Source: Candidatus Buchananbacteria bacterium
GTDB lineage: Bacteria > Patescibacteriota > Patescibacteriia > 2-01-FULL-39-33
Length of the DNA stretch: 64,000 bases
Assembly: GCA_030650095.1 (NCBI GenBank)
Contig: JAUSEE010000002.1
Coordinates: 6,711-70,710, forward strand
Direction: 5' to 3'
Below are positions 10,662 through 26,964 of the stretch, piece by piece. Made by a program: the position numbers and the translations under genes. The notes beneath the pieces were generated by a model that was not told the DNA's origin, did no database searches, and saw only the letters and a list, made by a program, of their open reading frames with translations. How positions within the stretch are numbered: the stretch's first letter is position 1; the number at the start of each line of letters is the position of its first letter.

Positions 10662-10671
10662 ATAATCAGAT

Positions 10672-11465: not shown

Positions 11466-13684
11466 AATTATTCACTCAATTAGTTACATTATTCATAGGC
11501 TTAACCCTTATTCCTTTAATATTTGTCGGCTTGCTTACTTATGCCAATACCAAAGGCGTTATTACTGATCAGATAATGGCTCAGTTGGTTTCTATTGCTG
11601 ATATTAAGAAAAATCAGATGAACCAGGTTATTGATGCTTATCTGGCAGATGTGGAAGAGTTAGCTTTACGAAATTATTTGCGCCTTAATTTAGAGGAGTA
11701 TAATCAAAATCCCACCATCGAACTGGCCTCGTCTATTGAAGCTAATATTTTCGATAGCTTGATATCTTCCCCTGAAATTGTTTCTATTGCCATTAAAGAT
11801 TCAAAAGGAAAAACAGTAGCTTCTGTGGGGGATGATTATGTGGAGCCGTTAGTAAACACAAAACAGTCGCCGGCTATAGAGAATATTTTTATGAATAGCC
11901 AAGGCATTCCTCGCGTTTTGCTTAGAAGTCCTATTATTGTAAATAATTCTACTATCGGATCCGTTGAGGTAGTAAGCAAAATTGATCCCTTTCGTATAAT
12001 AGCCGGTGATTATTCGGGCTTAGGCCAGTCGGGCGAGGTTTTAATAGCCAAGAAAAACGAAGCTGGTGATGCTCTTTTTTTAACGCCCATACGCTTTGAT
12101 CAAGGTGCCGCTCTAAAGCGGATTGTTAAAAAAGACAGAACCGATGTACCCTCTACCCATGCTGTTTCCGGCGAAGAAGCCTTTTTTCTGTCTGGCATGG
12201 TTGATTATCGCGGGGTTCCTGTTTTGGCGGTTACCAGGTTTATTGACAGACAAGGTTGGGGTATTGTGGTTAAAATAGATCGTGATGAAGTTTTTCAGCC
12301 ACTTACCAGCATATTGTTAACCTTTATTGTCATTATCACTACCACCCTTTTAGCGGTTGTTTTAGTAGCGGTTTTTGTGGCGCGCGCCATAACCAAGCCA
12401 ATCAGTCAATTATCCCAGGCGGCTGGAAAATTATCCCAAGGCAATTTTACCGCGGCTATAGAAATCATAAGTTATTATCCCAGCAATGAAATAGGCGTAA
12501 TGGCTAAGGCTTTTACTAAAATGGCATCCCAACTCAAAGAATTATACAGAAATTTAGAGGCCAAAGTGAAAGAGAGGACGCATGATTTAGAAAAATTCGA
12601 ATTGGCTGTGGATAGCGCCTATGATCAAATAGTTATTACTAATCCCGATGGCTTGATCTTGCATGCCAACAAATCCATAGAAAGGATTACCGGTTTTAAA
12701 TTAAAAGAGGTTTTAGGCCGGAAAGTCGGATCAAGGGAATTGTGGGGTGGACAAATGGGACCGGATTTTTATAAAAAATTATGGAAAACAATCAAAATAG
12801 ATAAAAAAACTTTTTCCGGAGAATTAATAAACCATCGCAAGAACGGTGATAATTATAATGTGCTGGTTAGGATTTCGCCGGTTTTGGATGATAAAAACCG
12901 GGTTGTTTATTTTGTGGGCATTGAAAGGGATATTACCAAGGAAAAAGAAGTGGATAAAATGAAAACCGAATTTGTCTCGGTGGCTTCGCATCAGCTTAGA
13001 ACGCCACTCACTGCCATTAGGTGGTATGTCGAGGAAGTTTACAACGGTGAACTGGGCAAGTTAAATAAAAATCAAAAAGATTATCTTAAACAGATACTGG
13101 AATCAAATGAGAGGATGATCAGGCTGGTTAATGATCTCTTGAATGTTTCCAGATTGGAAAGCGGTCGGGTAACTGTTGAACCTGTTTTAACTGATTTAGT
13201 TGAATTGATTGGCACCGTAGTTAACGAATGCGGTATATTAGCTAAGGCTAAAAATTGCCAATTGAATTTTATCAAACCAAAAAGCAAGATATCCAAAATA
13301 AAAATAGACCCAGTTTTAATCGCGCAAGTTATAAATAATTTGGTTTCCAATTCCCTTAAATATTCCAAGTCCAGCGGTGAAAAATGTTCAGTGGTAATTG
13401 ATTTGTCTAAAAAAGACCCAAATGTTATCATTAGCGTAAAAGATAACGGCATTGGCATACCTTCTGGTCTTCAGAATCGTGTTTTTGATAAGTTTTTTAG
13501 GGCCGACAATGCCATTAAATCAGAAACCGAGGGCACCGGCCTGGGTCTTTACATTTCCAAGATGGTGGTGGAAGCATCGGGTGGAAAAATCTGGTTTGAA
13601 TCCAGCGAAGATGGAACAACTTTCACTTTTACCTTGCCGCTCTCTGGCAGTCCGGCGCGCAAAGGTGAAAAAGGCTTATCTTAA
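11462..13684 (+). CDS. Membrane sensor histidine kinase (extracytoplasmic sensor domain, HAMP, PAS, HisKA, HATPase_c)
   Basis: N-terminal TM + ~280-aa periplasmic-like domain + second TM; SHQLRTPLTAIRWYVEEV H-box; GTGLGLYISKMVV G2 box. Confidence 0.85.
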   Translation: MKLFTQLVTLFIGLTLIPLIFVGLLTYANTKGVITDQIMAQLVSIADIKKNQMNQVIDAYLADVEELALRNYLRLNLEEYNQNPTIELASSIEANIFDSLISSPEIVSIAIKDSKGKTVASVGDDYVEPLVNTKQSPAIENIFMNSQGIPRVLLRSPIIVNNSTIGSVEVVSKIDPFRIIAGDYSGLGQSGEVLIAKKNEAGDALFLTPIRFDQGAALKRIVKKDRTDVPSTHAVSGEEAFFLSGMVDYRGVPVLAVTRFIDRQGWGIVVKIDRDEVFQPLTSILLTFIVIITTTLLAVVLVAVFVARAITKPISQLSQAAGKLSQGNFTAAIEIISYYPSNEIGVMAKAFTKMASQLKELYRNLEAKVKERTHDLEKFELAVDSAYDQIVITNPDGLILHANKSIERITGFKLKEVLGRKVGSRELWGGQMGPDFYKKLWKTIKIDKKTFSGELINHRKNGDNYNVLVRISPVLDDKNRVVYFVGIERDITKEKEVDKMKTEFVSVASHQLRTPLTAIRWYVEEVYNGELGKLNKNQKDYLKQILESNERMIRLVNDLLNVSRLESGRVTVEPVLTDLVELIGTVVNECGILAKAKNCQLNFIKPKSKISKIKIDPVLIAQVINNLVSNSLKYSKSSGEKCSVVIDLSKKDPNVIISVKDNGIGIPSGLQNRVFDKFFRADNAIKSETEGTGLGLYISKMVVEASGGKIWFESSEDGTTFTFTLPLSGSPARKGEKGLS

Positions 13685-13711
13685 AATAAAATACAAAATA
13701 ATAACAAGTTT

Positions 13712-14092
13712 ATGGCCAAGAAAAAATCATACAAAATCCTGGTAGTGGAAGATGAACCGGCTCTCCAGCAAACATTGGGGGATAAAATCAAACGCGAGGG
13801 TTGGGAGTATATCCCATCTTTAAACGGCGAAGAGGGCTTAAGGACGATTAAGAAATCACAGCCTGATTTGATTATTTTGGATTTGCTTATGCCCAAAATG
13901 AGCGGATTGGAGATGTTAAAAGAAGTGCGAAAAATTTATGATAAGCAGGATTTGCCGGTGATAATTTTGACTAATTACAGCGAAGGCCAGAATGTCAGCG
14001 AAGCCATAGCTTTGGGAGCTGATATTTTCCTAGTTAAAGCCAATTATTCCCTGGAAGAAATTATTGAAAAGATAAGAGAGGTTTTGGATTAA
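13712..14092 (+). CDS. Single-domain response regulator (receiver only)
   Basis: ILVVEDEPAL...LIILDLLMPKMSGLE. Confidence 0.85.
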   Translation: MAKKKSYKILVVEDEPALQQTLGDKIKREGWEYIPSLNGEEGLRTIKKSQPDLIILDLLMPKMSGLEMLKEVRKIYDKQDLPVIILTNYSEGQNVSEAIALGADIFLVKANYSLEEIIEKIREVLD

Positions 14093-14113
14093 ATAATAAT
14101 ATCTACATCAGAA

Positions 14114-14506
14114 GTGATGATAGCAGAGAACAAAATAAAACCGGATTGTAAGATTTTATTAGCCGAAGGCGACAGATTCTTATCGAAAGTTATCAGCAAT
14201 AAGCTGCTGCGGCGCGGTTTCTGCCTGTCTTTGGCTAATGACGGCTTGGAAGCTATGGCTAAAATAAAGACCGAACAGTTTGATTTGGTTTTACTGGATT
14301 TAACTTTAAGCAAGAAAAACGGCTTGGAAGTTTTGGCCGAATTAAAGAAAGATAAGAAATTAAAAATAAAAATCGTGGTTTTGTTAAGCTTAAGCAAAAC
14401 CAGCGACATAGAAAAAATAAAAAAATTAGGCATTACCGATTATATTATTAAAAGTGATTTGTCTATAAATACGCTGGCGGATAAAGTGGGAGAATTGATC
14501 AAATAA
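14114..14506 (+). CDS. Single-domain response regulator (receiver only, divergent)
   Basis: KILLAEGD...LVLLDLTLSKKNGLE...DYIIKS. Confidence 0.8.
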   Translation: MMIAENKIKPDCKILLAEGDRFLSKVISNKLLRRGFCLSLANDGLEAMAKIKTEQFDLVLLDLTLSKKNGLEVLAELKKDKKLKIKIVVLLSLSKTSDIEKIKKLGITDYIIKSDLSINTLADKVGELIK

Positions 14507-14603: not shown

Positions 14604-14999
14604 ATGCTGGGCCTAAAAAAACAAACAGCTAACAAGAAAGTCTTGCTGGTAGAGGATGATTCCCTTCTGGCTAACATATTAATGGATTCACTGGTTCGCG
14701 AAAAGTTTGACGCCGTTAACATAAAAGACGGCTTAGGGGTAATGGAGGCGGCTCAAAAGTTTAAGCCCGATATTGTTTTATTGGATTTGATTTTGCCGGG
14801 CCTGGACGGCTTTGAAGTCCTGAGGCAACTGAAAGCTGACAGCAAATTGAAAAGCGTGCCGGTTTTTATAATCTCTAATTTAGACAGCATTTCTGAGGTT
14901 AAATCGGCCAAAGCTTTGGGGGCGGAAGATTATTTTATCAAAGCCAATACCGATATAGAAAAAATCATAAAAGTAGTCAAAAAACGAATTAATAAGTAA
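14604..14999 (+). CDS. Single-domain response regulator (receiver only)
   Basis: VLLVEDDS...IVLLDLILPGLDGFE...DYFIKA. Confidence 0.85.
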   Translation: MLGLKKQTANKKVLLVEDDSLLANILMDSLVREKFDAVNIKDGLGVMEAAQKFKPDIVLLDLILPGLDGFEVLRQLKADSKLKSVPVFIISNLDSISEVKSAKALGAEDYFIKANTDIEKIIKVVKKRINK

Positions 15000-15058
15000 T
15001 ACCTATGCCACTAAGCGCGGATAAGGAGGAAAAAAAGCCCAGCGTAAAAGGAAACAAG

Positions 15059-15415
15059 ATGATTCTGATAGTGGAAGACGATCAGGTTCTTTTGAGGGTG
15101 ATGTATCTGTTTTTAAAGAGAAGATCCGGTTTTGCCATAGCTACCGCCAGCGATGGCGATACGGCCTTGAAAATGGCCCAAAGGCTTAAACCGAATGTTA
15201 TTTTATTAGATCTGATTCTGCCAAAAATGGATGGTTTTTCGGTCTTAAAATCACTTAAATCCGATCCGATGATGAAAGACATACCAGTGATAGTTTTATC
15301 CAATTTGGGGGATACCGGCGACATTGATAAAGCCAAAGATCTGGGCGCGGCTGATTATTTTGTCAAAGCCAATACCGATTTAGCCGTTATTTTGGAAAAA
15401 ATAAAAAATTATTAA
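15059..15415 (+). CDS. Single-domain response regulator (receiver only)
   Basis: Start moved to ATG 15059 (MILIVEDDQ, AAGGA 8 nt upstream); VILLDLILPKMDGFS...DYFVKA. Confidence 0.8.
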   Translation: MILIVEDDQVLLRVMYLFLKRRSGFAIATASDGDTALKMAQRLKPNVILLDLILPKMDGFSVLKSLKSDPMMKDIPVIVLSNLGDTGDIDKAKDLGAADYFVKANTDLAVILEKIKNY

Positions 15416-15424
15416 TTTAACCAT

Positions 15425-16249
15425 ATGCTCCAAACTCGTTGGTTGAATCTGGTGCTTCTGCTGACCAACAGGATTTATGAGCAAAAACAACAAGTTATCA
15501 GGAGGTCTGGCCTAAGTGCCATACTTAATGTTTTCAATTTGGTTTTACTAGAGCTTTTCTTGGGTCTAATTTCCTTCCCGCTTTATCTGGGCATGAGAGC
15601 CGGAAAAGTCTCTACTTTTTTGGAGGATAAAAGCGGTTATGAAAAAATAACTTTTGATTATAACTTACGCCGCGTCCTGACTTTAACCAGCGCGAGCGTT
15701 ATTTTTTTTATTTGGCTGGTTAAGCTTTCGGTGATTGTCTTGGCGCCCACTTTTTTCGGGCCGATACAGCTTTATTCGGTTTCTGATTTGAGGCCGGTGG
15801 ACCTCTTGGAAAAAGAAATAATCGTGGCCGAAACTCGTATTCAGACAGCCCGGGTTTTGGATCAAATGACTGTGCCCGAGCTTAAAAAAGTGGATAAATT
15901 AAGAGGCGGCAATTATCGTTTTTACGGCACCGGCCAGCCCCAAACCAAGGTAGTTTTACTGGTGGCTGATACTCAAACGCTTATTTTAATCGGCGATACT
16001 GACGATAAAGGCAATTGGCAGGTGGATTTAATTAGAAGTGAATTCAAATTAAGCGCAGGCAACCATTCCGTTTTGGTTTTTAATTTTGATGAAGCTAAAG
16101 AGGTTCGTAGCCAAGTATCATACAAGCAATATTTTAAATCAAAAGATACTCTAATTGATCAATTGGTAAAGAACACTGATATTTTTATCAATTCATCAAT
16201 AATAATCGTTATAATCTTGGGCATTCTCTTAACTGTCTTAACTCTTTAA
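15425..16249 (+). CDS. Membrane protein whose N-terminal ~60 aa are paralogous to the N-terminus of the downstream giant protein
   Basis: MLQTRWLNLVLLLTNRIYEQKQQV...LELFLGLISFPLYLGM versus MSERWLNLFLKLSGFIFNTKQKV...FELGFAIISLPMYLIV in the 16254 ORF; C-terminal TM. Confidence 0.5.
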   Translation: MLQTRWLNLVLLLTNRIYEQKQQVIRRSGLSAILNVFNLVLLELFLGLISFPLYLGMRAGKVSTFLEDKSGYEKITFDYNLRRVLTLTSASVIFFIWLVKLSVIVLAPTFFGPIQLYSVSDLRPVDLLEKEIIVAETRIQTARVLDQMTVPELKKVDKLRGGNYRFYGTGQPQTKVVLLVADTQTLILIGDTDDKGNWQVDLIRSEFKLSAGNHSVLVFNFDEAKEVRSQVSYKQYFKSKDTLIDQLVKNTDIFINSSIIIVIILGILLTVLTL

Positions 16250-16253
16250 ACAT

Positions 16254-19200
16254 ATGTCTGAAAGATGGCTCAATTTATTTTTAAAGCTCTCCGGTTTCAT
16301 CTTTAATACCAAACAGAAAGTGGTGAAGGCTGATAATTGGGTGATGGTTATTCCTCATGTTTTGGTTATTATAGTTTTTGAGCTGGGTTTTGCCATTATT
16401 TCTTTGCCCATGTATCTGATTGTTTCTCCTAAGGCAGTCCAGGAAAGAGGCTTTATTTTTCCCATGGGGGAAGGGGAAAAAAGCGACAAAAAAGATGTGA
16501 TTCGCGTTTATACTGCCAGAAGGAGAATCAGCCTAACTACCGGGGCTGGCGCCGGCACATTTTTTGTTTTAAAAATTTTGCTTATTGTTTTTACTTCGCT
16601 TTATCTTTTGGGCGCTCAAAAACTGTTGGCTGCTACCCAGGATTGGACTTTTGACACGGCCGGCGATTACACCTATGACAGCGCCAAAATAGAGGTGACT
16701 GGCGGCGTAGGACGGTTAAAAAATATCGGCAGCGCTACTTCCGGCTCTACCACCAATTCTGCTTTTACCAGTGACGCTACCGATTGGACTTATGCCGATT
16801 GGCTTAATAACGCTGGCGCTAGCGGGGCTTATTCTTCCACTGGCGGCAATACCGGAGGCAATGTGCAAATTACTTTAAGTTCGGCAAAAAATAAAACCAC
16901 TGCCGGTTTGTATAGGCAGTCATTTACGACAACTGTTGATTCTCCGGATACAGCCACTTTGAATTTGGATTGGTCATCAATCAGCTATTCGGTGCCGGCC
17001 CCCTTTGATACTTACCAGCTTTACGCTTTTATTGATACGGCCAGTGGCGATCCGACATTGGGACAGCAGGTCTGGAGCAGCGGTGAAATTACCGGCACGA
17101 CCGCTTGGGCGAGCAGCGCCACCATTGATATTACCAGTAAGGTTCCAACTGCTGACACTTATTACTTAAAAATCGTCGCTTATCATGATACGCCCGGCAC
17201 TACTGGCACATACACTACTGTAGCCGGTTTTGATAATGTGGTTGTTAATTGGTCTAAAACCACCGTGCTTTATGCTTCTGATAGGCCAACTATTAATCCA
17301 ACCACTTCCTTGAGTAATGAATTTGTAACTACTTGGGATTCCTTTACTGAAACAGCCACCAAAAACGGCGGTGAAATCTATTATCAATTATCCAATGATG
17401 ACGGCGCAACTTGGCAATATTGGAACGGCAGCGCCTGGGCGACAGCCGGAGCCAGCAATTACAACACCGGCTCGGTTATAAATACCAATATAAGCACTTT
17501 CGGCGTTACCAACCATAAAATAAGGTGGAAAGCATATTTAGAAAGCAACGGCAGCCAACAGGTCATACTTGATAATGTCAATATCGGTTATACCGAAAAC
17601 GATCCGACTCATGTCCAAAACTTATCCCCAGCGCAAAACACCACTTCCGGCTTAATGCATGTTAATTATGAATTAAAGGATGATCAAAGCGATCCGGCTT
17701 CGCTGGTGGTTTACGAATATTCTTTAACCGGCGCCTTTAGTGGTGAACAAACAACTATGACTGCTTCCACTACTGATGCCAGCCATAATGGCGTGTCCGG
17801 ACTCTCCAGTTCGCCGACCGGTGTGGCTCATACCTTTGTCTGGGACGCTCAAACTCAAATCGGCGCTATTTATGATGCATCTGTTTATGTTCGGTTGCGG
17901 GGTAGTGACGGCATCAATGTCGGTGATCATACCACTTCTACCGCTTTCGCCGTGGATTATGTGGTGCCGGTAGTTACAAATGTCAGCGCTTCTCAAGTGT
18001 CTGGTTCTACTAATGTCACTATAACTTATGATTTAGCCGATGATACTTCGGATAATTTGTTGGTGGAATTAGGTATTTCCAATGATGGCGGTAGCACCTG
18101 GGTAGTGCCGACAGTTACTGCTTCCGGACATGTCGGTTCCGGAGTGACAGCCGGCACCGGCAAATCCATTACTTGGAATGCCGGCACTGATTATGATGAG
18201 CACCAGCAGAGCACTATGCAAGTTAGAGTGAGAGCTAAAGATAAATATCAAAACCAAGGTTCTTATGCTTCTTCGGCTAATTTCACTTTAGACACTTTAA
18301 ACCCGGTTACCAATGCCACCTCTAATTTACAGGCCCAGCCTAATGCCGGAGATACCACGGTTTCCATTAGCGGTTCCTTTACCGAAGCTAATCCTAATAC
18401 TAATGATTTTTATGCGGCTCTAAATGGCGGAGCTTACTCTTCGGCTACAGCCGGCGCATCTGATACGGTAACGCCCGGCACTCAATCAACAGCGGTGGGC
18501 GTCACTTTGGACGGCAATGATTATATCTCCGGCGTCAAAATCACCCACACTGATGATTTCGGCCAAGCGACTGATAACGAAAACACTTCTCCTAATACGG
18601 CTTACAAATACGTTAAGCCTTACACTCCGCAAGCTCCGACCTTGGATAATCCGGTAACCACCAGATTGGACTTAACTATTAATCCGCATGCTTCAGAAAC
18701 TAGTGGTTTAGATTATTTAATTCAAGAAACCACCAGCGGCAATTATGTCCAGGCTGACGGCACTTTGGGCGCCAGCGAGGTTTGGCAGGTAATGGGCACC
18801 GGCAGCGGACAGTGGGGCAATAACACCAGCGTTAGCGGCAAAGTAAGAATTACTGGTTTAAGCTCACCGGTGGCTAATTATATTTTTAAAGTCAAATCAA
18901 GAAATAATAGTGATACTGCTCATGCCGCATCTTCTGAATCAGCTTTCTCCTCTACCGCTCAAATTACCAATACCGCGCCTTCCATCGCCTTGGGCAGCGT
19001 GGCGCAAACCACCGATGGCACGCGTTATGTGCCTGTAAATTATACCGGCACAGACGGCCAAGGTGATTTAAATGATATAACCGTTTATGAATATTCCACT
19101 GATAATTCCGCTTGGAACACGATGACGGAAAAGAGCGGTGTCGGTTCTGAGGGCTTGGCTGATTTGGTTTTCTTATCCGGCGGCAGCGCTCATAATTTTG

Positions 19201-22200
19201 TCTGGGATTCCGGCACGGATTTGCCCAGTGTGGAAGATGACACGGTTTATGTGAGGTTAAGATCAACCGATACTTTAACTAACAGCGCTCTGTCGGCTTC
19301 CTCGGCTTTTGTTATTGATAATGTCAATCCGGTAGTTTCCAGCGTAACAGCTTCGCAAGATGCCAGCGCCAGGACTGTGACCATCGGCTATACTTTAACC
19401 GATCATAATAATTCCACAGTGGAATTGGATATTTCCGAAGACGGCGGTAGTACTTGGACTGTTACCGACAGTAGTGTAACCGGCGATGTGGGAGCTGGCA
19501 TAACTCCGGGAGCCGGTAAGTCAATCACTTGGAATGCCGGCACTGATTTTGACGATCAGTATCAAACCGATTTACAAGTTAGGATTAGGGCTACCGATAC
19601 CAAAGGCAATGTTAGCGACTGGGCCCAATCGGCTAATTTTACTCTAGACACCAAAGATCCGGTAGTCTCCAGTGTAACGGCCTCACAAGATAGCGGAGCC
19701 AAAACATTTGTTTTCCATTATGATGTTTCCGAAGATTTGGGCAATGTGACTGTAGTTTTGGCCATTTCCAGTAACAGCGGCAGTACTTATGTTGTGCCAA
19801 TTACTTCGGCTAGCGGAGATACGGGAGCTGGCATAACTTCCGGCACGGGCAAAACTATAACTTGGGATGCCGGCGCTGATTACGACGGTTTTGAAGAAAC
19901 CGACATGAAGATTAAAATAACCGCTACTGATCAATTTACCAATAGCAGCAATAACACCTCGGCTGATTTTTCACTTGATAGTTTAGCCCCCAGAGTTACC
20001 AGCGTTAGCGCCACGCAAAACAGCGGCGCCACCACAGTGGCTATAACCTATACTTTAGCCGATCAAAATAATTCAAATATTGAAATAGATATTTCCGAAG
20101 ATGGCGGCAGCACCTGGGCGGTAACCGACACCAGCGTAACCGGCGATGTGGGAGCCGGTGTGGGAGCCGGCAGTAAGACCATCACTTGGAATGCCGGCGC
20201 TGATTTTGACGAACAACAACAAAGCGATATTAGGGTGCGGGTGAGGGGAACAGATATTTATGCCAATGCCAGCGCCAATATGAGCTCATCTAATTTTTCT
20301 TTGGATACTAAAAACCCGGCAGTTAACGTGGCGGTTGATCTTTTGGCCCAGCCTAATGCCGGCGACAGCACGGTTTTAATCGGCGGTTCGTTTACTGAGG
20401 CCAATCCTAATACCAATAATTTTTATGTGGCTATAAATGGCACATTTTACGGCTCAGCCACAGCCGGCACTTCTAATACTGCCAGCCCCTCAAATCAGGC
20501 TACAGACGTGGGGACAACTTTAGACGGCAGTGATTATATCTCTCAAGTAAAAATCACTCATACCGATGATTTTGGCCAAACAGTTGATAATGAAGACACT
20601 AGTCCTAATTCAGCCTATGTTTATGTCAAACCATATACTCCTCAAGTTCCGACAGTTAATAATCCCACTGTTGGCACAGTTGATGTTTTAATCAACCCCC
20701 ATGCTTCAGAAGTATCCGGTTTGCAATACGCTATTTATGAAACATCCCAAGGCAAATATGTCCAAGCTGATGGCACTTTGGGCGCCTCGGCTGTTTGGCA
20801 GATAATGGGTACGGCTAGTGGCCAGTGGGGCAATAACACCAGTGTCAGCGGCAAAGTCAGGGTAAACGGCTTAACCGTTGATTCTTATCTTTACGCTTTC
20901 CAGGTAAAATCCAGAAATTCTTCCGATGATCTTCATGCTACTGCCAGTGAAAGCGCTTTCTCGTCTTCCGCTTCCTCTGTCAATCAATCGCCGTCAATCA
21001 GCATTACCTCTGTTTCTCAAACAACCGACGGCACCAAATATGTCACTATCAATTACACCGGCACTGATTTAGAGGGTGAAGCCAGCAGTTTAATTTCCTA
21101 CCAATATTCAACCAATAATAGCACTTGGTTTACCATGACCGAAAAAGCCGGTGTTGGCTCTGATGGCACCAGCGCTTTAACTTTCTCTTCTTCCGGCACC
21201 ACTCATGATTTTATGTGGGACGTGGGAGCTGATTTGGATAACACCGAAGACACCACGGTCTATGTGAGGTTAAGGGCCAATGATGGCACTTCCAGCGGCA
21301 ATATTGAAACTTCCAGCGCTTTTACTGTTGATACCAAAAATCCGGTTATATCTTCGGCTACCGGCACGCAGGTTGCCAGCTCTAATAATGTCACCTTAGG
21401 CTACACTTTAACTGATTTGTCCAGCGCTAATATAGAAATTGATATTTCCGAAGATGGCGGATCAAATTGGACAGTTACCGATACCAGCGTGACCGGCGAT
21501 ATCGGCTCGGGTATAACACCGGGCTCGGGCAAAGCGATTACCTGGAATGCCGGCGCTGATTTTGACGGCCAGGAACAAAGCGATATTAGATTCCGAGCCA
21601 GAGGCACGGATACTTATGGCAATCAAGGTTCTTATGCTTCCTCGGCTAATTTTTCCTTAGATACCAAAGATCCGGCAGTTTCTAATGTGAGCGCGTCTCA
21701 AAACTCCGGCGCTTCTACTATTGCTATAACTTACGATTTATCAGATGCTAATAATTCAACTGTAGAAATTGATATATCTTCAGATGGCGGCAGCACTTGG
21801 ACGGTAGGCGACAGTAGCGTGACCGGTGATGTGGGAGCAGGCGTAACTCCGGGAGCCGGCCAAACAATCACCTGGGATGCCGGCACTGATTTCTCCAGTC
21901 AAGATCAGACCGATATCAGGGTGAGAGTAAGAGCCACTGATATTTACAGCAATGCCAGCTCCAATGTGGAATCAGCTAATTTTTCTCTGGATACTTTGGG
22001 ACCTAGTATTTCCAGCGTGACGGCCAGCCAAACCAGCGGAGGCGATAATGTGGTTATAAATTATAATTTAACTGATAACAGCGCCGTTAATGTGGCCATA
22101 GATATTTCCGAAGACGGCGGATCAACCTGGACAGTAACCGATACCAGCGTGACCGGCGATGTGGGAGCAGGCGTTTCCCAAGGTTCCGGCAAAGCTATCA

Positions 22201-25200
22201 CTTGGAATGCCGGCGCTGATTTTGACAACCAAGATCAATCTGATCTAAGAGTCAGGGTTAGGGGAACTGATGCTTATACTAATTCCAGCGGTAATATAGA
22301 ATCGGCTAATTTCTCTTTGGATACCAAAGATCCGGCTACTAACTCTACAGCTAATTTAATCTCTCAACCAAACGCCGGTGATACTACTGTTTCTGTCGGC
22401 GGTTCATTTACAGAAACTAGTCCTAATACCAATGATTTCTATATGGCTCTAAATGGCGGAGCTTATGGCGCCTCAACTGCCGGCACTTCCAATAGCGCCT
22501 CGCCAACCAATCAAGCTACGGCTGCTGGCGCTACCCTAGACGGCAATGATTATGTTTCCAAAGTTAAAATTACCCATACTGATGATTTCGGCCATATTTT
22601 TGACAATGAAAATACCAGCCCGAATACATCTTACAAATATGTTAAGCCTTACACCCCACCGACACCGACAGTTAATAATCCTCAAAATACTTCAGCTGAT
22701 GTGACAATTGATAAAAATGCCTCGGAAACCAGCGGTTTGGAATATGCTATTTATGAAAATTCCACCGGACAATATGTCCAGGCTAATGGCACTTTAGGCG
22801 CTTCCGCTGTCTGGAGGCAAATTGGTACTGGTGCGGGAGAGTGGGGCGTATCTTCCGGCGTGAGCGGCAAAATAACAGTTAGCGGACTAACTTCACCGGT
22901 GGCCCAATATAATTTCCAGGTCAAATCCAGAAATACTTCTGACACATTAAACGCTTCTTCCAGCGAAAGCAGTTTGTCGGCCAGCGCCAGCATCACCAAC
23001 ACCTCGCCGGTTGTAGCTATCTCCAGTGTTGCCCAACAAACGGGCGGAGTTAATTATGTGAGCATAGATTATACCGGCACCGATGCTCAAAACGATACCA
23101 ACGATTTAAATATTTTTGAATATTCAACCGATAATTCCACTTGGTCTTCTATGACAGAAAAAGCCGGCGTCGGCTCGGACGGCACCAGTGATTTAATCTT
23201 TACTTCAGCCGGAGCCAGCTTTAATTTTGCCTGGGATTCGGCCGCTGATTTGCCCAACACGGAAGATTCAACTGTTTATATTAGACTACGTTCCACCGAC
23301 AGTTTAGCCAACAGCAATTTGGCCGCGTCCTCGGCTTTTGATATTGATAATTTAGGGCCGATAATTTCCAATGTTTCCGTTAGTCAGACGCCCAGCACCG
23401 GCAATATAGTTATAAACTATGACTTAAATGATAATACTACGGCCAATAATGCCATCACCATAGACATTTCCGAAGATGGCGGCAGCACTTGGACGGTAAC
23501 CGATACCAGCGTAACCGGTAGTGTGGGAGCCAGTATTTCTGCCGGTAGTGGAAAATCTATCACTTGGAATGCCGGCGCTGATTTTGACAATGAAGAGCAA
23601 AGCGATATGAAGGTTAGAATAAGAGGCACTGATTCTTACGGCAATGTGGGCAGTTATCAGCCGTCGTCAGACTTTTCTTTAGATACTAACAATCCGGTTG
23701 TTTCGGCAGTTAGCGCTTCACAAGGCGTTGGCAGTTCTGATGTGACGATAAATTATACTTTAACTGATGGTACGAGCGCCGGTCATTTGGTAGAAATAGG
23801 CTTATCCAGTGATGGCGGAGTCAATTGGAATGTCGCCACTTCCAGCGTTAGCGGCCATGTCGGCTCGGGCCAAACAACCGGTTCTAAATCGTTCACTTGG
23901 GAGGCGGGCACCGATTTTAGCAGTGAAGAGCAATCAGATATGAGGGTTAGGATTAGATCAACGGATTATTATGGCAATGTCAGCAGTTATGCCAGTTCGG
24001 CTAATTTCTCTTTAGATACAGCTAGTCCGACTATTTCCAATTTAGCCGCCAGCCAAACGGCCGGTGGCAGTAATGTCGCTATTGATTATGATTTGGCTGA
24101 TACCAGCGCCTCTAATTTAACTCTGGAAATTGATATCTCCGATAATGGCGGCAGCACCTGGACAGTTACCGACACCAGCTCCACCGGTAATATCGGCGCC
24201 AGCCAAACAACCGGCTTAAATAAAGCTATCACTTGGGCAGCCGGCACTGATTTAACCAATCAGGAGCAAAACGATATCAGAGTGCGACTGCGAGCCACAG
24301 ATACCTATGGCAATATCAGCAGCTACTTTGAATCATCTGATTTTGCGGTTGATACGGCCGGCCCGATAGGTCTTAGCGCTTTGTCTAAATTCTCTTCTAC
24401 TGATACCACCATTACTTTAAACTGGTCGTCAGCTGTAACTGATGCCAACTTTGACCATTATGAAATCTGGCATGGCTCAAACGCCAGTGATGTTGATGGC
24501 AGATCGGGCACGGCTGCTAATTGGGATCAAACAGATGATGCCAATTTAACTAATATTAATACGATTTCTACGGTTGTTACCGGTCTTAATGTAACTGGTA
24601 ATTATTATATGAAGATTTGGGCTGTTGATGATTATGGCAATGAAGTAACTATAGCTGCCATTAATGTCTTTGAAGCTCCGGCAACTCCAGAAGCTACAGT
24701 CACGCCAACCGGCGGAGGAGCCCCGGCAGAAATATTAACTCCGGATTTAGTGCCTCCGGCTTCACCTATTTTAAGCTCGGTTAATAGTCCGACCAATTCT
24801 ACTAATATTAGTATATCCGGCTTGGCTGAACCTCGATCCGTTGTGGACTTATACGATAATAATCAATTAATCGGACGCTTAATTTCGTTAACCAGTGGCA
24901 ATGGGCAATTTGAACAGAATTTCGCCTTTACTGAGGGCTCGCACGTCTTGACCGCCCGAGCTACTGATGCCGCCGGCAATGCCAGCGCCTTATCGGATCA
25001 ATTGATTTTAATAATTGATCAAACTCCGCCGGCTGCTCCGATTGTCTTGGTGCCTGATAATAATTCGGAAGTGAGTGACGCCACGCCTCAAATTATCGGC
25101 GTCAGTGAACCGCTAGCTGCTATTACCGTTTTAATTGATAATACCACCTCGCTTACTACCTTGGCCGATAATAACGGCGCTTGGAATTTGATTTTGCCCT

Positions 25201-25826
25201 CTGCTTCCGCCTTAACTGATGGCAGCCATAGCTTTGCTATCACTGCTACCGATTCTGCTGGCAATCTGGGTCCATCAACCGCGCTAGCGGTTACTAAAAT
25301 ATTTTCTCCTGTGACTGTTGAGGAAATTACGCCTCCTGTTGCCCCCTCAATACCGCTACCTTCTGGAGCCGGCATTACCGAAATAATTGAATCAACAGAA
25401 CTTCCAGGTATTCAAGTGCCGGAAGTTGTCCAGACAGCTGCCGTGGCCACCGAAAATAATATCCTCGCTTTTAGCGGAAAATCATTGCCTAACAAAGATG
25501 TAGTTGTTTATATCCATAGCGCTCAAGCTTTGATTTATCAAACCAGAACAGACAAAAATGGCAATTGGACCATAAATCATTCCCAAGATATTATAGAATT
25601 AACTCCCGGCCAGCATTCAATTTTTGCGGTAACCGTTGATCCAGTGGCTAAGGTTAAAAGTTTCCCCAGTGAAGTTAAATTATTTGAAGTCAAAAGAAAC
25701 TTTTTTGCCCTGCTCTTCAATTTGCTTAATATCCAAACCACCGCTTTAGTTTTGGGCATCACCCTAGTGGTTATCTTCTGGCTCTACCGCATAAGAAAGA
25801 AAAACTTAGCCTTAGCTGAGGCTTAA
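16254..25826 (+). CDS. Giant (3190 aa) repeat-rich cell-surface protein with ~17 Asp-box (S-x-D-G-G-S-T-W) Ig/FN3-like domains, N- and C-terminal membrane anchors
   Basis: Recurring ~100-aa unit ...DISEDGGSTWTVTDTSVTGDVGAG.T.G.GK.ITWNAGADFD...D.RVRVRGTD.YGN....SANFSLDTK.P; C-terminal TM LVLGITLVVIFWLYRIRKKN; Thr/Ser/Gly-rich. Confidence 0.8.
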   Translation: MSERWLNLFLKLSGFIFNTKQKVVKADNWVMVIPHVLVIIVFELGFAIISLPMYLIVSPKAVQERGFIFPMGEGEKSDKKDVIRVYTARRRISLTTGAGAGTFFVLKILLIVFTSLYLLGAQKLLAATQDWTFDTAGDYTYDSAKIEVTGGVGRLKNIGSATSGSTTNSAFTSDATDWTYADWLNNAGASGAYSSTGGNTGGNVQITLSSAKNKTTAGLYRQSFTTTVDSPDTATLNLDWSSISYSVPAPFDTYQLYAFIDTASGDPTLGQQVWSSGEITGTTAWASSATIDITSKVPTADTYYLKIVAYHDTPGTTGTYTTVAGFDNVVVNWSKTTVLYASDRPTINPTTSLSNEFVTTWDSFTETATKNGGEIYYQLSNDDGATWQYWNGSAWATAGASNYNTGSVINTNISTFGVTNHKIRWKAYLESNGSQQVILDNVNIGYTENDPTHVQNLSPAQNTTSGLMHVNYELKDDQSDPASLVVYEYSLTGAFSGEQTTMTASTTDASHNGVSGLSSSPTGVAHTFVWDAQTQIGAIYDASVYVRLRGSDGINVGDHTTSTAFAVDYVVPVVTNVSASQVSGSTNVTITYDLADDTSDNLLVELGISNDGGSTWVVPTVTASGHVGSGVTAGTGKSITWNAGTDYDEHQQSTMQVRVRAKDKYQNQGSYASSANFTLDTLNPVTNATSNLQAQPNAGDTTVSISGSFTEANPNTNDFYAALNGGAYSSATAGASDTVTPGTQSTAVGVTLDGNDYISGVKITHTDDFGQATDNENTSPNTAYKYVKPYTPQAPTLDNPVTTRLDLTINPHASETSGLDYLIQETTSGNYVQADGTLGASEVWQVMGTGSGQWGNNTSVSGKVRITGLSSPVANYIFKVKSRNNSDTAHAASSESAFSSTAQITNTAPSIALGSVAQTTDGTRYVPVNYTGTDGQGDLNDITVYEYSTDNSAWNTMTEKSGVGSEGLADLVFLSGGSAHNFVWDSGTDLPSVEDDTVYVRLRSTDTLTNSALSASSAFVIDNVNPVVSSVTASQDASARTVTIGYTLTDHNNSTVELDISEDGGSTWTVTDSSVTGDVGAGITPGAGKSITWNAGTDFDDQYQTDLQVRIRATDTKGNVSDWAQSANFTLDTKDPVVSSVTASQDSGAKTFVFHYDVSEDLGNVTVVLAISSNSGSTYVVPITSASGDTGAGITSGTGKTITWDAGADYDGFEETDMKIKITATDQFTNSSNNTSADFSLDSLAPRVTSVSATQNSGATTVAITYTLADQNNSNIEIDISEDGGSTWAVTDTSVTGDVGAGVGAGSKTITWNAGADFDEQQQSDIRVRVRGTDIYANASANMSSSNFSLDTKNPAVNVAVDLLAQPNAGDSTVLIGGSFTEANPNTNNFYVAINGTFYGSATAGTSNTASPSNQATDVGTTLDGSDYISQVKITHTDDFGQTVDNEDTSPNSAYVYVKPYTPQVPTVNNPTVGTVDVLINPHASEVSGLQYAIYETSQGKYVQADGTLGASAVWQIMGTASGQWGNNTSVSGKVRVNGLTVDSYLYAFQVKSRNSSDDLHATASESAFSSSASSVNQSPSISITSVSQTTDGTKYVTINYTGTDLEGEASSLISYQYSTNNSTWFTMTEKAGVGSDGTSALTFSSSGTTHDFMWDVGADLDNTEDTTVYVRLRANDGTSSGNIETSSAFTVDTKNPVISSATGTQVASSNNVTLGYTLTDLSSANIEIDISEDGGSNWTVTDTSVTGDIGSGITPGSGKAITWNAGADFDGQEQSDIRFRARGTDTYGNQGSYASSANFSLDTKDPAVSNVSASQNSGASTIAITYDLSDANNSTVEIDISSDGGSTWTVGDSSVTGDVGAGVTPGAGQTITWDAGTDFSSQDQTDIRVRVRATDIYSNASSNVESANFSLDTLGPSISSVTASQTSGGDNVVINYNLTDNSAVNVAIDISEDGGSTWTVTDTSVTGDVGAGVSQGSGKAITWNAGADFDNQDQSDLRVRVRGTDAYTNSSGNIESANFSLDTKDPATNSTANLISQPNAGDTTVSVGGSFTETSPNTNDFYMALNGGAYGASTAGTSNSASPTNQATAAGATLDGNDYVSKVKITHTDDFGHIFDNENTSPNTSYKYVKPYTPPTPTVNNPQNTSADVTIDKNASETSGLEYAIYENSTGQYVQANGTLGASAVWRQIGTGAGEWGVSSGVSGKITVSGLTSPVAQYNFQVKSRNTSDTLNASSSESSLSASASITNTSPVVAISSVAQQTGGVNYVSIDYTGTDAQNDTNDLNIFEYSTDNSTWSSMTEKAGVGSDGTSDLIFTSAGASFNFAWDSAADLPNTEDSTVYIRLRSTDSLANSNLAASSAFDIDNLGPIISNVSVSQTPSTGNIVINYDLNDNTTANNAITIDISEDGGSTWTVTDTSVTGSVGASISAGSGKSITWNAGADFDNEEQSDMKVRIRGTDSYGNVGSYQPSSDFSLDTNNPVVSAVSASQGVGSSDVTINYTLTDGTSAGHLVEIGLSSDGGVNWNVATSSVSGHVGSGQTTGSKSFTWEAGTDFSSEEQSDMRVRIRSTDYYGNVSSYASSANFSLDTASPTISNLAASQTAGGSNVAIDYDLADTSASNLTLEIDISDNGGSTWTVTDTSSTGNIGASQTTGLNKAITWAAGTDLTNQEQNDIRVRLRATDTYGNISSYFESSDFAVDTAGPIGLSALSKFSSTDTTITLNWSSAVTDANFDHYEIWHGSNASDVDGRSGTAANWDQTDDANLTNINTISTVVTGLNVTGNYYMKIWAVDDYGNEVTIAAINVFEAPATPEATVTPTGGGAPAEILTPDLVPPASPILSSVNSPTNSTNISISGLAEPRSVVDLYDNNQLIGRLISLTSGNGQFEQNFAFTEGSHVLTARATDAAGNASALSDQLILIIDQTPPAAPIVLVPDNNSEVSDATPQIIGVSEPLAAITVLIDNTTSLTTLADNNGAWNLILPSASALTDGSHSFAITATDSAGNLGPSTALAVTKIFSPVTVEEITPPVAPSIPLPSGAGITEIIESTELPGIQVPEVVQTAAVATENNILAFSGKSLPNKDVVVYIHSAQALIYQTRTDKNGNWTINHSQDIIELTPGQHSIFAVTVDPVAKVKSFPSEVKLFEVKRNFFALLFNLLNIQTTALVLGITLVVIFWLYRIRKKNLALAEA
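18293..24350 (+). repeat. Three tandem ~2.0-kb (~670-aa) super-repeats inside the giant gene
   Basis: Units begin near 18293, 20305 and 22321, each starting LDT(L/K)(N/D)P..N.....L.(A/S)QPNAGD(T/S)TV...SFTE(A/T)(N/S)PNTN(D/N)FY. Confidence 0.7.
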
Positions 25827-25942
25827 AATTTAATTCGAAATTAAACTAAACCCATCTTGGCATAAAAAGATGGGTTGAGTTGTAAAATTGCGCCTTTTTT
25901 GTTAAAATATGTCATATATTCATAATCACAATTTAATAAAAT

Positions 25943-26692: not shown

Positions 26693-26697
26693 ACAAC

Positions 26698-26964
26698 ATG
26701 AAAATATTAAAAATCGGCGCCGATTGGTGTCCCGAATGCATTATCATGAGGCTGCGTTTCACTGAAATTGAAAAAGATATGCCGGATTTACAAACTGAAT
26801 TCATTGATATAGACAAAAATCCAGAAATAAAAAAAGCCAGGAACATAGAAGATATTCCCACTTTTATTTTTTTGGATAAAAACGGACAGGAAATCTTAAG
26901 ATTACAAAAATTAATTGAAAAAGAAGATCTGATTAAAATAATAAAAGAAAATTATGATAAATAA
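26698..26964 (+). CDS. Small thioredoxin-fold protein (WCPEC active site)
   Basis: 88 aa, ADWCPECIIM CxxC motif, IPTFIF cis-Pro region. Confidence 0.6.
   Translation: MKILKIGADWCPECIIMRLRFTEIEKDMPDLQTEFIDIDKNPEIKKARNIEDIPTFIFLDKNGQEILRLQKLIEKEDLIKIIKENYDK

What the first reader, a model, noticed from the sequence alone, without database searches (positions are those of the whole stretch)
16254..25826. 3190-aa surface protein built from Asp-box-containing ~100-aa domains arranged in three 2-kb super-repeats
About seventeen copies of a ~100-residue unit centre on the Asp-box/BNR-like motif S-E-D-G-G-S-T-W, followed by TVTDTSVTGDVGAG..PG.GK.ITWNAGADFD and a conserved D-x-RVRVRGTD.YGN ... SANFSLDTK.P boundary. 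At a higher level, ~670-aa blocks starting LDT.NP..N....L.AQPNAGDTTV and containing YKYVKPYTP and FQVKSRN motifs recur three times (DNA ~18293, 20305, 22321). The protein has an N-terminal double-TM anchor and a C-terminal TM plus basic tail, and is Thr/Ser/Gly-rich. This is typical of S-layer-like or adhesin giants of ultra-small bacteria. Such tandem architecture is recombinogenic and is a likely phase/size-variable locus and assembly hot spot.
Basis: seen in the sequence. Interest (0 to 1): 0.6.

Follow-up and report, generated by a model that had tools for sequence, protein, structure and literature searches.

The report
Giant two-end-anchored surface fibre protein
This is a real 3190-residue protein of an ultra-small (Patescibacteria) bacterium, probably a surface protein: a roughly 100-nm chain of 26 small beta-sheet domains with membrane segments at both ends, whose length is set by three ancient, stable 6-domain cassettes and which always sits next to a miniature copy of itself and two signalling proteins.

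Summary
ORF 16254-25826 (+) is real. It is identical to MDO8668758.1, annotated "Ig-like domain-containing protein", Candidatus Buchananbacteria.

The repeats are real, but the count is off:
- 10 units carry S-x-D-G-G-S-T-W.
- 4 more units are divergent copies of the same domain.
- The total is 26 beta-sandwich domains.

Three 671-aa cassettes (X-F-C-A-A-A) are confirmed. AlphaFold2 (pLDDT 94) and Foldseek show an FN3/Ig-like rod. Most of the domains match no Pfam family.

The "recombinogenic, phase-variable, assembly hot spot" reading is not supported:
- The cassettes are only 66-68% identical in DNA.
- The longest exact repeat is 34 bp, and there are no simple-sequence repeats.
- 28 independent assemblies share the identical 27-module architecture.
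- Cassettes group by position across genomes.

Length varies only between lineages, with 0, 1, 3, 4 or 6 cassettes.

New findings:
- In every locus with an intact giant, the gene directly follows a 274-aa mini-paralogue that has the same N- and C-terminal membrane modules.
- Two positionally orthologous CheY-like receivers precede the mini-paralogue, and a histidine kinase lies nearby.
- The N-proximal domain is shared with pilin-like proteins.

Most likely this is a length-tuned adhesion or contact fibre coupled to signalling. Function is inferred, not shown. It is a new variant of a known kind and moderately interesting.

The parts
16254..25826 (+). Giant gene, 3190 aa, 333.6 kDa, pI 4.15. 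Module order is N-J-R-C-A-[X-F-C-A-A-A]x3-f-B-b-L.
   Evidence: ORF. Identical to MDO8668758.1. Module HMMs. Mass and pI.
16254..16628 (+). N-anchor module (aa 1-125). It has an N-terminal helix, hydrophobic segment 1 with invariant E43 and S50-x-P52, a positively charged loop ending in invariant R89-R90, and hydrophobic segment 2 with invariant K107.
   Evidence: Hydropathy. Alignment of giants and mini-paralogues. Charge counts. Only 191 representatives in 1.84 billion proteins, all but a few of the 150 listed matching at the protein's N-terminus.
16629..17606 (+). J-R 'head' (aa 126-451). J is about 220 aa with no Pfam match. R is an Asp-box-bearing domain resembling Reelin subrepeat B.
   Evidence: Pfam gives only Reelin_subrepeat-B below threshold. 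The R domain is 53% identical (E 2e-34) to the C-terminal domain of the prepilin-type protein P0368, and the J start motif is also shared.
17607..18293 (+). First C unit (aa 452-572) and first A unit (aa 573-680), lying before the cassettes.
18294..20309 (+). Cassette 1 (aa 681-1352): X, F (FN3-like), C, A, A, A.
   Evidence: AF2 model of aa 681-1132 has pLDDT 94.3. Foldseek hits are FN3/Ig tandem arrays.
20310..22325 (+). Cassette 2 (aa 1353-2024).
22326..24353 (+). Cassette 3 (aa 2025-2700).
24354..24653 (+). f: a single FN3 domain (aa 2701-2800).
   Evidence: Pfam fn3, E 1e-4, 22.9 bits, just below the cut-off of 25.
24726..25319 (+). B and b: two Big_13 / Ca_tandemer bacterial Ig-like domains (aa 2825-3022).
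   Evidence: Pfam Big_13 E 4e-22 and Big_6 E 1e-14. NCBIfam Ca_tandemer 51.3 bits, cut-off 50. The family profile matches the Bap structure 7dm0 at E 4e-17.
25434..25823 (+). L module: the last Ig-like domain (aa 3061-3148), the C-terminal membrane segment and a basic tail (aa 3149-3190).
   Evidence: Weak Big_13 match. Homologous to aa 137-272 of the mini-paralogue, E 8e-10. The tail is net +3.9 across 28 orthologues.
15425..16249 (+). MINI: a 274-aa mini-paralogue (MDO8668757.1). It consists of the N-anchor, one Ig-like domain and the C-terminal membrane helix. It ends 4 nt before the giant's ATG.
   Evidence: BLASTP to the giant's two ends, E 3e-9 and 8e-10. 168 relatives, of which the 120 best listed are almost all 272-275 aa and carry no functional name. 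AF2 pLDDT 74. Directly upstream of the giant in every locus examined that has a giant. Junction sequence.
14604..15415 (+). Two CheY-like single-domain response regulators, RR(-2) at 14604-14999 and RR(-1) at 15005-15415. Both are positionally orthologous across loci.
   Evidence: Pfam Response_reg. Orthology groups of 43-64% and 53-74% identity, with conserved equivalents of CheY D57, T87 and K109. Synteny.
10809..14506 (+). The associated signalling genes. A multi-pass membrane protein lies at 10809-11465. A membrane histidine kinase (HAMP-PAS-HisKA-HATPase) lies at 11462-13684. Two further single-domain receivers lie at 13712-14092 and 14114-14506.
   Evidence: Pfam. The membrane ORF matches the N-terminal membrane part of the kinase that follows the one-cassette giant in L003, and the kinase matches those that follow the one-cassette giants in L003, L007 and L012.
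25849..25876 (.). A 10-bp-stem hairpin 23 nt after the stop codon, a possible operon terminator.
   Evidence: Consensus scan only, not evidence of function.

Best explanation
The gene encodes a conserved Patescibacteria cell-envelope fibre.

Shown:
- It is a 333-kDa, very acidic (pI about 4.1), cysteine-free protein.
- About 3020 residues between its membrane segments form 26 beta-sandwich or jelly-roll domains.
- The order is a J-R head, C-A, three 6-domain cassettes (X, FN3-like F, C, A, A, A), one FN3, two Ca_tandemer Ig domains and a last Ig domain.
- The Asp-boxes are built-in hairpins of the A, C and R domains, not blades of a sialidase-type propeller.

Inferred from charge distribution:
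- The second N-terminal hydrophobic segment acts as an uncleaved signal-anchor, with the positive loop inside and the acidic chain outside.
- The C-terminal helix with its basic tail re-enters the membrane.
- The chain is therefore extracellular and tethered at both ends. Its contour is roughly 100 nm at about 4 nm per domain.

Shown by comparison:
- The cassette is an ancient extension unit. Relatives carry 0, 1, 3, 4 or 6 copies in an otherwise fixed chassis.
- Each cassette position is conserved in its own right.

Most likely mechanism (inferred):
- The protein is a length-tuned adhesion or contact fibre. Its J-R module, which is shared with pilin-like proteins, is the best candidate for a binding part.
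- It works together with the co-encoded mini-paralogue, which has the same membrane modules.
- It is wired to a dedicated histidine kinase and CheY-like receiver set. That set either controls the fibre from inside or reads contact from it.
For: Reality and origin.

Fold:
- The AF2 model of X-F-C-A has pLDDT 94.3 and pTM 0.75 and is all-beta.
- Its best PDB matches are tandem FN3/Ig rods: RPTP sigma, fibronectin, titin, contactins and the extender of a large bacterial adhesion protein, 6xi3.
- The B and b domains match Big_13, Ca_tandemer and the Bap structure 7dm0.
- The mini-paralogue's Ig domain best matches Bap and SiiE domains.

Topology:
- Across 28 giant orthologues the loop before TM2 is net +4.2, the 30 aa after TM2 are net -3.5, and the C-tail is net +3.9. 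Across 110 MINI homologues the corresponding loop and post-TM2 values are +2.3 and -2.4.
- No LPXTG, RTX, PEP or PGF motif is present.

Cassette history.

Operon:
- Gaps of 4-9 nt separate RR(-1), MINI and the giant.
- RR-RR-MINI-giant is found in every one of the roughly 12 distinct loci that have a giant. These include loci labelled Uhr-, Magasanik- and Falkowbacteria; the window itself is Buchananbacteria.
- At least 19 MINI/giant pairs share the same longest-contig length in the protein searches.
- The receivers are positionally orthologous and keep the phospho-acceptor residues.

Binding candidate: the R domain is 53% identical to the C-terminal domain of prepilin-type proteins.

Literature:
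- Giant membrane proteins with FN3 and similar domains have been proposed as host-attachment factors in other CPR bacteria (PMC8080830, PMC13059738).
- Type IV pili mediate host binding in Saccharibacteria (PMC11623550).
- Asp-boxes occur as single hairpins in Ig-like and jelly-roll domains, and they support reelin's rod-like shape (PMC2716378).
Against: - There is no experimental datum on this family, and I found no paper on it.
- Conservation is uniform along the ectodomain, 48-67% per module, with no hypervariable tip. That is unusual for a host-recognition adhesin and fits a structural role better.
- In a two-end-anchored topology the J-R module is next to the membrane rather than distal.
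- Both flanks of the first hydrophobic segment are positively charged, so the N-anchor topology is not resolved.
- The mini-paralogue model is only moderately confident (pLDDT 74, pTM 0.43).
- The link to the two-component genes is by gene order only.
- Extracellular location is inferred, not shown.
Confidence: 0.55

Rival explanations
1. Passive envelope scaffold or spacer (S-layer-like ruler). The fibre is structural. It sets or supports the distance or lattice of an outer layer. The cassettes match a periodic partner, in the way titin's A-band super-repeats match the thick filament. No specific ligand on another cell is involved.
For: - Conservation is uniform, each cassette keeps a position-specific identity, and there is no variable tip.
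- The cassettes come in whole numbers.
- The composition is acidic, Cys-free and Ser/Thr-rich, like many S-layer proteins.
- pTM of 0.75 for four domains suggests defined inter-domain geometry.
- Titin's super-repeats are a precedent for position-specific conservation (PMC10665226).
Against: - No SLH or other known S-layer anchoring domain was found.
- The R domain is shared with pilin-like proteins.
- The constant linkage to CheY-like receivers and a kinase is not expected for a passive wall component.
- One genome appears to lack the giant altogether (L015).
Confidence: 0.25
2. Moving 'leg' or mechanosensor. The giant and the mini-paralogue form a membrane device whose conformation is driven or read through the conserved buried Glu/Lys pair in the N-anchor. 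The device is controlled by the CheY-like receivers, giving surface motility or contact sensing.
For: - E43 is nearly invariant (at least 90% of 28 orthologues) and K107 invariant, both inside the hydrophobic segments of giants and MINIs.
- Two CheY-like receivers without output domains are always adjacent.
- From my own knowledge, not tested here: Mycoplasma mobile uses a roughly 3200-aa membrane-anchored leg protein (Gli349) for gliding.
Against: - There is no ATPase or motor gene in the conserved neighbourhood.
- There is no homology to any known motility protein.
- The idea rests on gene order and two conserved residues.
Confidence: 0.08
3. Contingency locus. The tandem cassettes recombine often, giving phase or size variation within populations and mis-assembly.
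For: - Copy number differs between lineages.
- One MAG (L005) has the gene interrupted by a stop codon.
Against: - DNA identity between cassettes is 66-68%, and the longest exact repeat is 34 bp.
- No SSRs or homopolymers are present, and TRF finds nothing.
- 28 independent assemblies share the identical architecture.
- Cassettes are orthologous by position.
Confidence: 0.03
4. Assembly artefact. The three cassettes are a collapsed or expanded repeat.
For: None found.
Against: - The cassettes differ at about one base in three, so short reads place them uniquely.
- The same three-cassette order, with positional orthology, occurs in many assemblies from different projects: NCBI, JGI, ENA and Logan.
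Confidence: 0.01

Closest known systems
Giant Ca2+-stabilised Ig-repeat adhesins (Bap, BapA, LapA, SiiE, MpIBP)
   Same: - Very large, acidic proteins made of a rod of tandem beta-sandwich domains.
- The B/b domains here pass NCBIfam Ca_tandemer and Pfam Big_13, and they match the Bap structure 7dm0.
- An MpIBP-type extender (6xi3) is among the fold matches.
- In those proteins a repetitive 'extender' sets the reach. From my own knowledge, LapA retention is controlled by inside-out signalling.
   Different: - No RTX repeats, no type I secretion signal and no LPXTG.
- Membrane segments at both ends.
- 22 of the 26 domains belong to other types that Pfam does not cover (X, F, C, A, J).
- The repeats are old and individually conserved rather than near-identical.
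Giant membrane proteins of other CPR bacteria (Vampirococcus lugosii, Absconditicoccaceae)
   Same: They come from ultra-small episymbiotic bacteria, exceed 1500 aa, have predicted transmembrane segments plus FN3 and similar adhesion-type domains, and have been proposed to mediate host recognition (PMC8080830, PMC13059738).
   Different: - They are from a different CPR lineage, and I did not test homology to those proteins.
- In the keyword searches I ran on those two papers, 'response regulator' was absent, and nothing on a mini-paralogue, cassette structure or receiver linkage turned up.
Titin A-band super-repeats
   Same: - Long chains of FN3/Ig domains arranged in multi-domain super-repeats.
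- Domains at equivalent positions resemble each other more than their neighbours do.
- They are interpreted as a ruler or scaffold (PMC10665226).
- A titin FN3 tandem is among the fold matches.
   Different: Titin is eukaryotic and cytoplasmic and has no membrane anchors. The resemblance is in architecture only.
Reelin repeats and the sulfite-oxidase Ig-like domain (Asp-box in beta-sandwich folds)
   Same: - A single Asp-box hairpin inside a beta-sandwich or jelly-roll domain.
- In reelin these hairpins sit at module interfaces and support a rod shape (PMC2716378).
- Sub-threshold Pfam matches of A and R to Mo-co_dimer and Reelin_subrepeat-B.
   Different: The matches are below Pfam cut-offs. 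There is no EGF module and no molybdenum-cofactor domain.
Staphylococcal Ebh/Embp and Mycoplasma mobile Gli349 (from my own knowledge, not tested)
   Same: Giant surface proteins of wall-less or monoderm bacteria that are held by a transmembrane segment rather than by sortase.
   Different: They use different domain types (helical FIVAR/GA repeats in Ebh). No sequence or fold match was seen here.

Membership tests
BNR/Asp-box repeat proteins (sialidase-type beta-propellers, Pfam PF02012) | Sequence motif S-x-D-x-G-x-T-W | tested here: met
   S.D.G..W occurs 9 times against 0.045 in shuffles. There are 10 type-A units, plus the R domain and 4 relaxed copies in C units.
BNR/Asp-box repeat proteins (sialidase-type beta-propellers, Pfam PF02012) | Match to the Pfam BNR model | tested here: not met
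   No PF02012 hit at E up to 1 for the whole protein or for single modules. A few homologues carry a precomputed PF02012 hit.
BNR/Asp-box repeat proteins (sialidase-type beta-propellers, Pfam PF02012) | Repeats form blades of a beta-propeller | tested here: not met
   The motif spacing is about 110 aa. The AF2 model (pLDDT 94) shows separate beta-sandwich domains that match FN3/Ig tandems.
Fibronectin type III domain (PF00041) | Pfam model above the gathering score | tested here: inconclusive
   Domain f scores E 1e-4 and 22.9 bits against a cut-off of 25. The F domains give no hit.
Fibronectin type III domain (PF00041) | FN3-type beta-sandwich fold in tandem array | tested here: met
   Foldseek top hits are FN3 tandems, E 8e-9 to 1e-6 with probability 1.0.
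Big_13 / Ca_tandemer bacterial Ig-like repeat (PF19077, NF033510) | Model match above the curated cut-off | tested here: met
   Big_13 scores 62-79 bits (cut-off 27). Ca_tandemer scores 51.3 bits (cut-off 50). This applies only to aa 2825-3022, with a weak match in the last Ig domain.
RTX-type giant adhesins (LapA/SiiE class) | C-terminal RTX nonapeptide repeats / type I secretion signal | tested here: not met
   No GGxGxD motif is present. The C-terminus is a membrane helix plus a basic tail.
Sortase-anchored Gram-positive adhesins | LPXTG-type sorting motif before the C-terminal hydrophobic segment | tested here: not met
   No LPx[TSA][GAN] motif anywhere.
S-layer proteins | Known S-layer anchoring or lattice domain (e.g. 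SLH) | tested here: not met
   No such Pfam or NCBIfam hit.
S-layer proteins | Forms a regular 2-D lattice on the cell | not testable with these tools
   Needs electron microscopy.
Phase-variable contingency loci | Simple-sequence repeats or long near-identical repeats that allow slippage or recombination | tested here: not met
   There are no SSRs or homopolymers, and TRF finds nothing. The longest exact repeat is 34 bp and cassette DNA identity is 66-68%.
CheY-like single-domain response regulators (neighbours) | Receiver domain with the acidic pocket, the phospho-acceptor Asp, and the conserved Thr/Ser and Lys, and no output domain | tested here: met
   Pfam Response_reg at E 1e-16 to 1e-23. 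The proteins are 126-136 aa. The alignment to E. coli CheY shows equivalents of D12/D13, D57, T87 (Ser here) and K109.

The most novel reading that the evidence does not exclude
The giant, its 274-aa mini-paralogue, two dedicated CheY-like receivers and a histidine kinase form a previously undescribed signalling-coupled surface apparatus of Parcubacteria-group bacteria. It would be a loop or fibre of quantised length that transmits contact or tension across the membrane, or is switched from inside. Transmission would run through an N-anchor module carrying a conserved buried Glu/Lys pair. This would be a bacterial counterpart of integrin-like or LapD/LapA-like inside-out/outside-in signalling, or a new kind of gliding leg.
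Probability: 0.15. Interest if true: 0.8.

Novelty: new variant of a known kind. Interest (0 to 1): 0.45.

Why it matters
How ultra-small Patescibacteria attach to partner cells and sense them is largely unknown. Most of their large surface proteins are unannotated.

This family offers a defined, conserved four-gene module to test:
- two CheY-like receivers;
- a constant-length mini-paralogue;
- a giant fibre;
- a kinase nearby.

The fibre has a clear domain map, and its length changes only by whole 6-domain cassettes. If the fibre length matches a distance seen by cryo-ET, or if the kinase and receiver set proves to be functionally coupled to it, the family would be an entry point into contact sensing in these organisms.

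It is also a clean counter-example to the assumption that large tandem architectures are unstable. Here the repeats are ancient and individually conserved.

Tried and rejected
- Tandem Repeats Finder on 15000-27000 found nothing, because the copies are too diverged.
- Self-BLASTP returned only the trivial self-hit. I replaced it with a windowed BLOSUM offset scan.
- Rfam and tRNA scans of the window found nothing.
- Pfam on isolated X, F and C modules gave no hits. Module A gave only sub-threshold hits.
- A profile of the 14 A/C units against all PDB sequences found nothing significant; the best hit was E 0.65.
- The full-length family profile against PDB matched only Bap, through the Big_13 domains.
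- NCBIfam has no model for the mini-paralogue or for the membrane ORF at 10809-11465.
- The promoter and terminator scan was close to the shuffle background: 59 promoter-like sites against 45±8, and 22 terminator-like sites against 18.6±3.9. Apart from one hairpin after the stop codon it was not informative.
- The window's own pilin-like protein (2575-3630) does not share the J-R module.
- Foldseek of the mini-paralogue model found analogues only for its Ig domain. The KirBac hits (TM-score about 0.18) I judged too weak to use.
- Literature searches found general statements on giant CPR surface proteins but nothing on this family or on its link to receivers.
- Horizontal transfer as the cause of the raised GC content (0.43-0.47 against 0.36-0.40 in the flanks) was considered and set aside. 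The Gly/Ala/Thr/Ser-rich composition explains it, and the gene is syntenic in relatives.
Full report
OBSERVATION

The ORF is exactly as stated. It runs 16254..25826 on the + strand and encodes 3190 aa. A windowed BLOSUM self-comparison shows strong diagonals at offsets of about 110, 220, 452, 671 and 1343 aa.

Motif searches place the strict Asp-box unit (S-x-D-G-G-S-T-W) at ten positions: aa 609, 1061, 1172, 1281, 1732, 1842, 1952, 2406, 2518 and 2629. They place the cassette landmarks three times each, starting at aa 692/1363/2035, which is nt 18327/20340/22356. The pattern S.D.G..W occurs 9 times against 0.045 in shuffles.

There are 10 strict units (type A). Four divergent units (type C, with Y-E-Y-S-T-D-N-S-x-W and VYVRLR) align with A over their full length at 27-29% identity. 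One more Asp-box sits in the N-proximal R domain.

Hydropathy confirms two N-terminal hydrophobic segments (aa 28-59 and 94-122) and a C-terminal one (aa 3150-3180) followed by a basic tail. The protein has no Cys and is 25% Ser+Thr. It weighs 333.6 kDa with pI 4.15, and the ectodomain has 326 acidic against 116 basic residues.

ANATOMY

I built HMMs from the protein's own modules. They give the order N-J-R-C-A-[X-F-C-A-A-A]x3-f-B-b-L, which is 26 globular domains between the membrane segments.

Pfam recognises only the following:
- Big_13/Big_6 in B and b;
- a near-threshold fn3 in f;
- sub-threshold Reelin_subrepeat-B in R;
- sub-threshold Mo-co_dimer and Reelin_subrepeat-B in A.
X, F, C and J have no hit. 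NCBIfam adds Ca_tandemer for B/b.

An AlphaFold2 model of X-F-C-A (aa 681-1132, 30-sequence alignment) is very confident, with pLDDT 94.3 and pTM 0.75, and is all-beta. Foldseek against the PDB returns tandem FN3/Ig rods: RPTP sigma, fibronectin, contactins, titin, and a bacterial large-adhesin extender, 6xi3.

Sequence profiles of the A/C unit find nothing in the PDB. The full-length family profile matches only Bap, through B/b.

So the Asp-boxes here are single hairpins inside beta-sandwich domains. That situation is known from sulfite oxidase, chitobiase and reelin (PMC2716378). They are not propeller blades.

ARE THE CASSETTES UNSTABLE OR ARTEFACTUAL?

No.
- Pairwise cassette identity is 57-63% in protein and 66-68% in DNA. 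The longest exact direct repeat in the gene is 34 bp, and only three runs reach 30 bp.
- Residues that are identical between cassettes use the same codon 53-58% of the time, against 44-45% expected from the gene's own codon usage.
- There are no simple-sequence repeats or long homopolymers.
- The protein search found 71 family members. 28 of them, from independent NCBI, JGI, ENA and Logan assemblies and 52-74% identical to this one, have exactly the same 27-module string.
- A distance tree of the X-F-C parts groups cassette 1 with cassette 1, 2 with 2 and 3 with 3 across genomes. The triplication therefore predates these lineages, and there is no sign of concerted evolution.

Length does vary between lineages, but in whole cassettes:
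- one cassette, about 1760-2100 aa;
- three cassettes, about 3180 aa;
- four cassettes, with extra A units, 3580-4660 aa.
An exhaustive search with the N-anchor profile added two more classes: zero-cassette forms (for example 1147 aa, N-J-R-C-A-f-B-b-L) and a 5686-aa form with six cassettes.

Per-module conservation among the 28 orthologues is uniform at 48-67%. X, F and C are the most conserved, and there is no hypervariable region.

CONTEXT

The gene starts 4 nt after a 274-aa ORF (15425-16249) that has no Pfam or NCBIfam match. This ORF is a miniature of the giant:
- its aa 1-118 match the giant's aa 1-118 (E 3e-9);
- its aa 137-272 match the giant's aa 3042-3174 (E 8e-10).

Its family has 168 members. 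The 120 best listed are almost all 272-275 aa, and none has a functional name. The AF2 model (pLDDT 74, pTM 0.43) shows two long N-terminal helices, a beta-hairpin, a third long helix, a disordered linker, one Ig-like sandwich and a C-terminal helix. The Ig domain resembles Bap and SiiE domains.

Directly upstream lie four single-domain response regulators and a membrane histidine kinase. Further upstream lie another kinase and two more receivers.

I examined 15 fetched loci plus the window, which together represent about 12 distinct places. The order receiver-receiver-MINI-giant is found in every locus that has a giant. One-cassette giants are followed by a kinase and a receiver. The two receivers next to MINI form two positional orthology groups and keep the CheY catalytic residues. 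The window's membrane ORF at 10809-11465 and its kinases match parts of the kinase that follows the one-cassette giants.

One genome (L015) has receiver-receiver-truncated MINI-kinase and no giant.

TOPOLOGY (INFERRED)

Across 28 giants and 110 MINIs:
- the loop before the second hydrophobic segment is net positive (+4.2 and +2.3);
- the stretch after it is net negative (-3.5 and -2.4);
- the giant's C-tail is net +3.9.

This fits a signal-anchor that exports the domain chain and a C-terminal re-entry into the membrane. However, the N-tail is also positive, so the first hydrophobic segment cannot be a simple span.

That first segment carries a conserved Glu (E43; invariant in the 27-sequence anchor alignment, at least 90% in the 28 orthologues) and S-x-P. 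The second segment carries an invariant Lys (K107), and an invariant Arg pair (R89-R90) precedes it. The N-anchor occurs in only 191 representatives out of 1.84 billion proteins, in all but a few of the 150 listed at the protein's N-terminus, with two length modes: MINI-like and giant-like.

A POSSIBLE BINDING PART

The R domain is 53% identical (E 2e-34) to the C-terminal domain of prepilin-type proteins from related bacteria. These proteins also share the start motif of J. The pilin-like gene in this window (2575-3630) does not share it. R-like domains also occur in other large proteins that carry Laminin_G_3-type domains.

INTERPRETATION

Shown: this is a real, conserved, uncharacterised giant protein of Patescibacteria. 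It is built as an FN3/Ig-like rod with an ancient cassette structure, and it is embedded in a conserved gene module.

Inferred: extracellular location, tethering at both ends, and a contour of roughly 100 nm.

The mechanism I consider most likely is a length-tuned adhesion or contact fibre that works with the mini-paralogue and is coupled to the neighbouring two-component proteins. This agrees with proposals for other CPR giants (PMC8080830, PMC13059738) and with the role of pili in host binding (PMC11623550).

The main rival is a passive scaffold or ruler. It is favoured by the uniform, position-specific conservation, which recalls titin's A-band super-repeats (PMC10665226).

The contingency-locus and artefact readings are essentially excluded.

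NOVELTY

Giant membrane-bound FN3/Ig proteins in CPR bacteria are a known kind, and NCBI already labels this one "Ig-like domain-containing protein". I found no published description of the following:
- the membrane segments at both ends;
- the constant-length mini-paralogue;
- the fixed pair of CheY-like receivers;
- the quantised cassette number;
- the pilin-shared head.

I rate it a new variant of a known kind and of moderate interest.

Noticed in passing
window 7124-15415: There is an unusually dense signalling cluster on one strand. It holds two histidine kinases (7124-9043, soluble with 3 PAS domains; 11462-13684, membrane HAMP-PAS) and six single-domain response regulators (9745, 10287, 13712, 14114, 14604, 15005). 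None of the regulators has an output domain.
   Followed up: partly
window 10809-11465: This 218-aa multi-pass membrane ORF (TTG start, no Pfam or NCBIfam hit) overlaps the kinase start by 4 nt. It is 32% identical to the N-terminal membrane part of the 907-aa kinase that follows the one-cassette giant in L003. It looks like a split sensor module.
   Followed up: partly
L015 10001-12117 (OW818634.1): The locus has receiver-receiver, a mini-paralogue truncated at about aa 219-227, and then a kinase ORF, with no giant gene. It may be a natural deletion of the giant.
   Followed up: partly
L005 2685-12231 (JBAZRV010000008.1): The giant homologue is split into two ORFs (1533 and 1556 aa) by a stop codon near 7286, with no run of N. 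It is either a pseudogene or a sequencing error.
   Followed up: partly
P0367, P0368 (prepilin-type proteins, 437-465 aa): These pilin-like proteins of related bacteria carry the giant's R domain (53% identity) and the J start motif at their C-terminal end.
   Followed up: partly
window 2575-3630: This 351-aa protein has a prepilin N-terminal methylation motif (N_methyl, E 7.5e-9). It does not share the J-R module.
   Followed up: yes
P0211 (5686 aa) and P0237 (1147 aa): These are the extremes of the family. One has six X-F-C cassettes and the other has none, in the same N...L chassis.
   Followed up: partly
window 25849-25876: A palindromic 10-bp-stem hairpin (AACCCATCTT...AAGATGGGTT) lies in the 116-nt spacer after the giant's stop codon. 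It may be a terminator.
   Followed up: no
window 26954-28183, 32934-35021, 219-1052: Three sizeable ORFs (409, 695 and 277 aa) have no Pfam match. In addition, a 451-aa protein with a PEGA domain and weak beta-propeller matches lies at 36367-37722 on the minus strand.
   Followed up: no
L003 3-5525 / L004 1-5773: Another very large ORF (1840 aa or longer, cut by the contig end) lies upstream of the leucyl-tRNA synthetase gene near the Magasanikbacteria giant locus. I did not examine it.
   Followed up: no
L011, L013 record titles: Two loci that carry the full RR-RR-MINI-giant module are labelled 'Candidatus Gracilibacteria' and 'uncultured Gammaproteobacteria'. The second label is probably a mis-binned or mislabelled MAG.
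   Followed up: no
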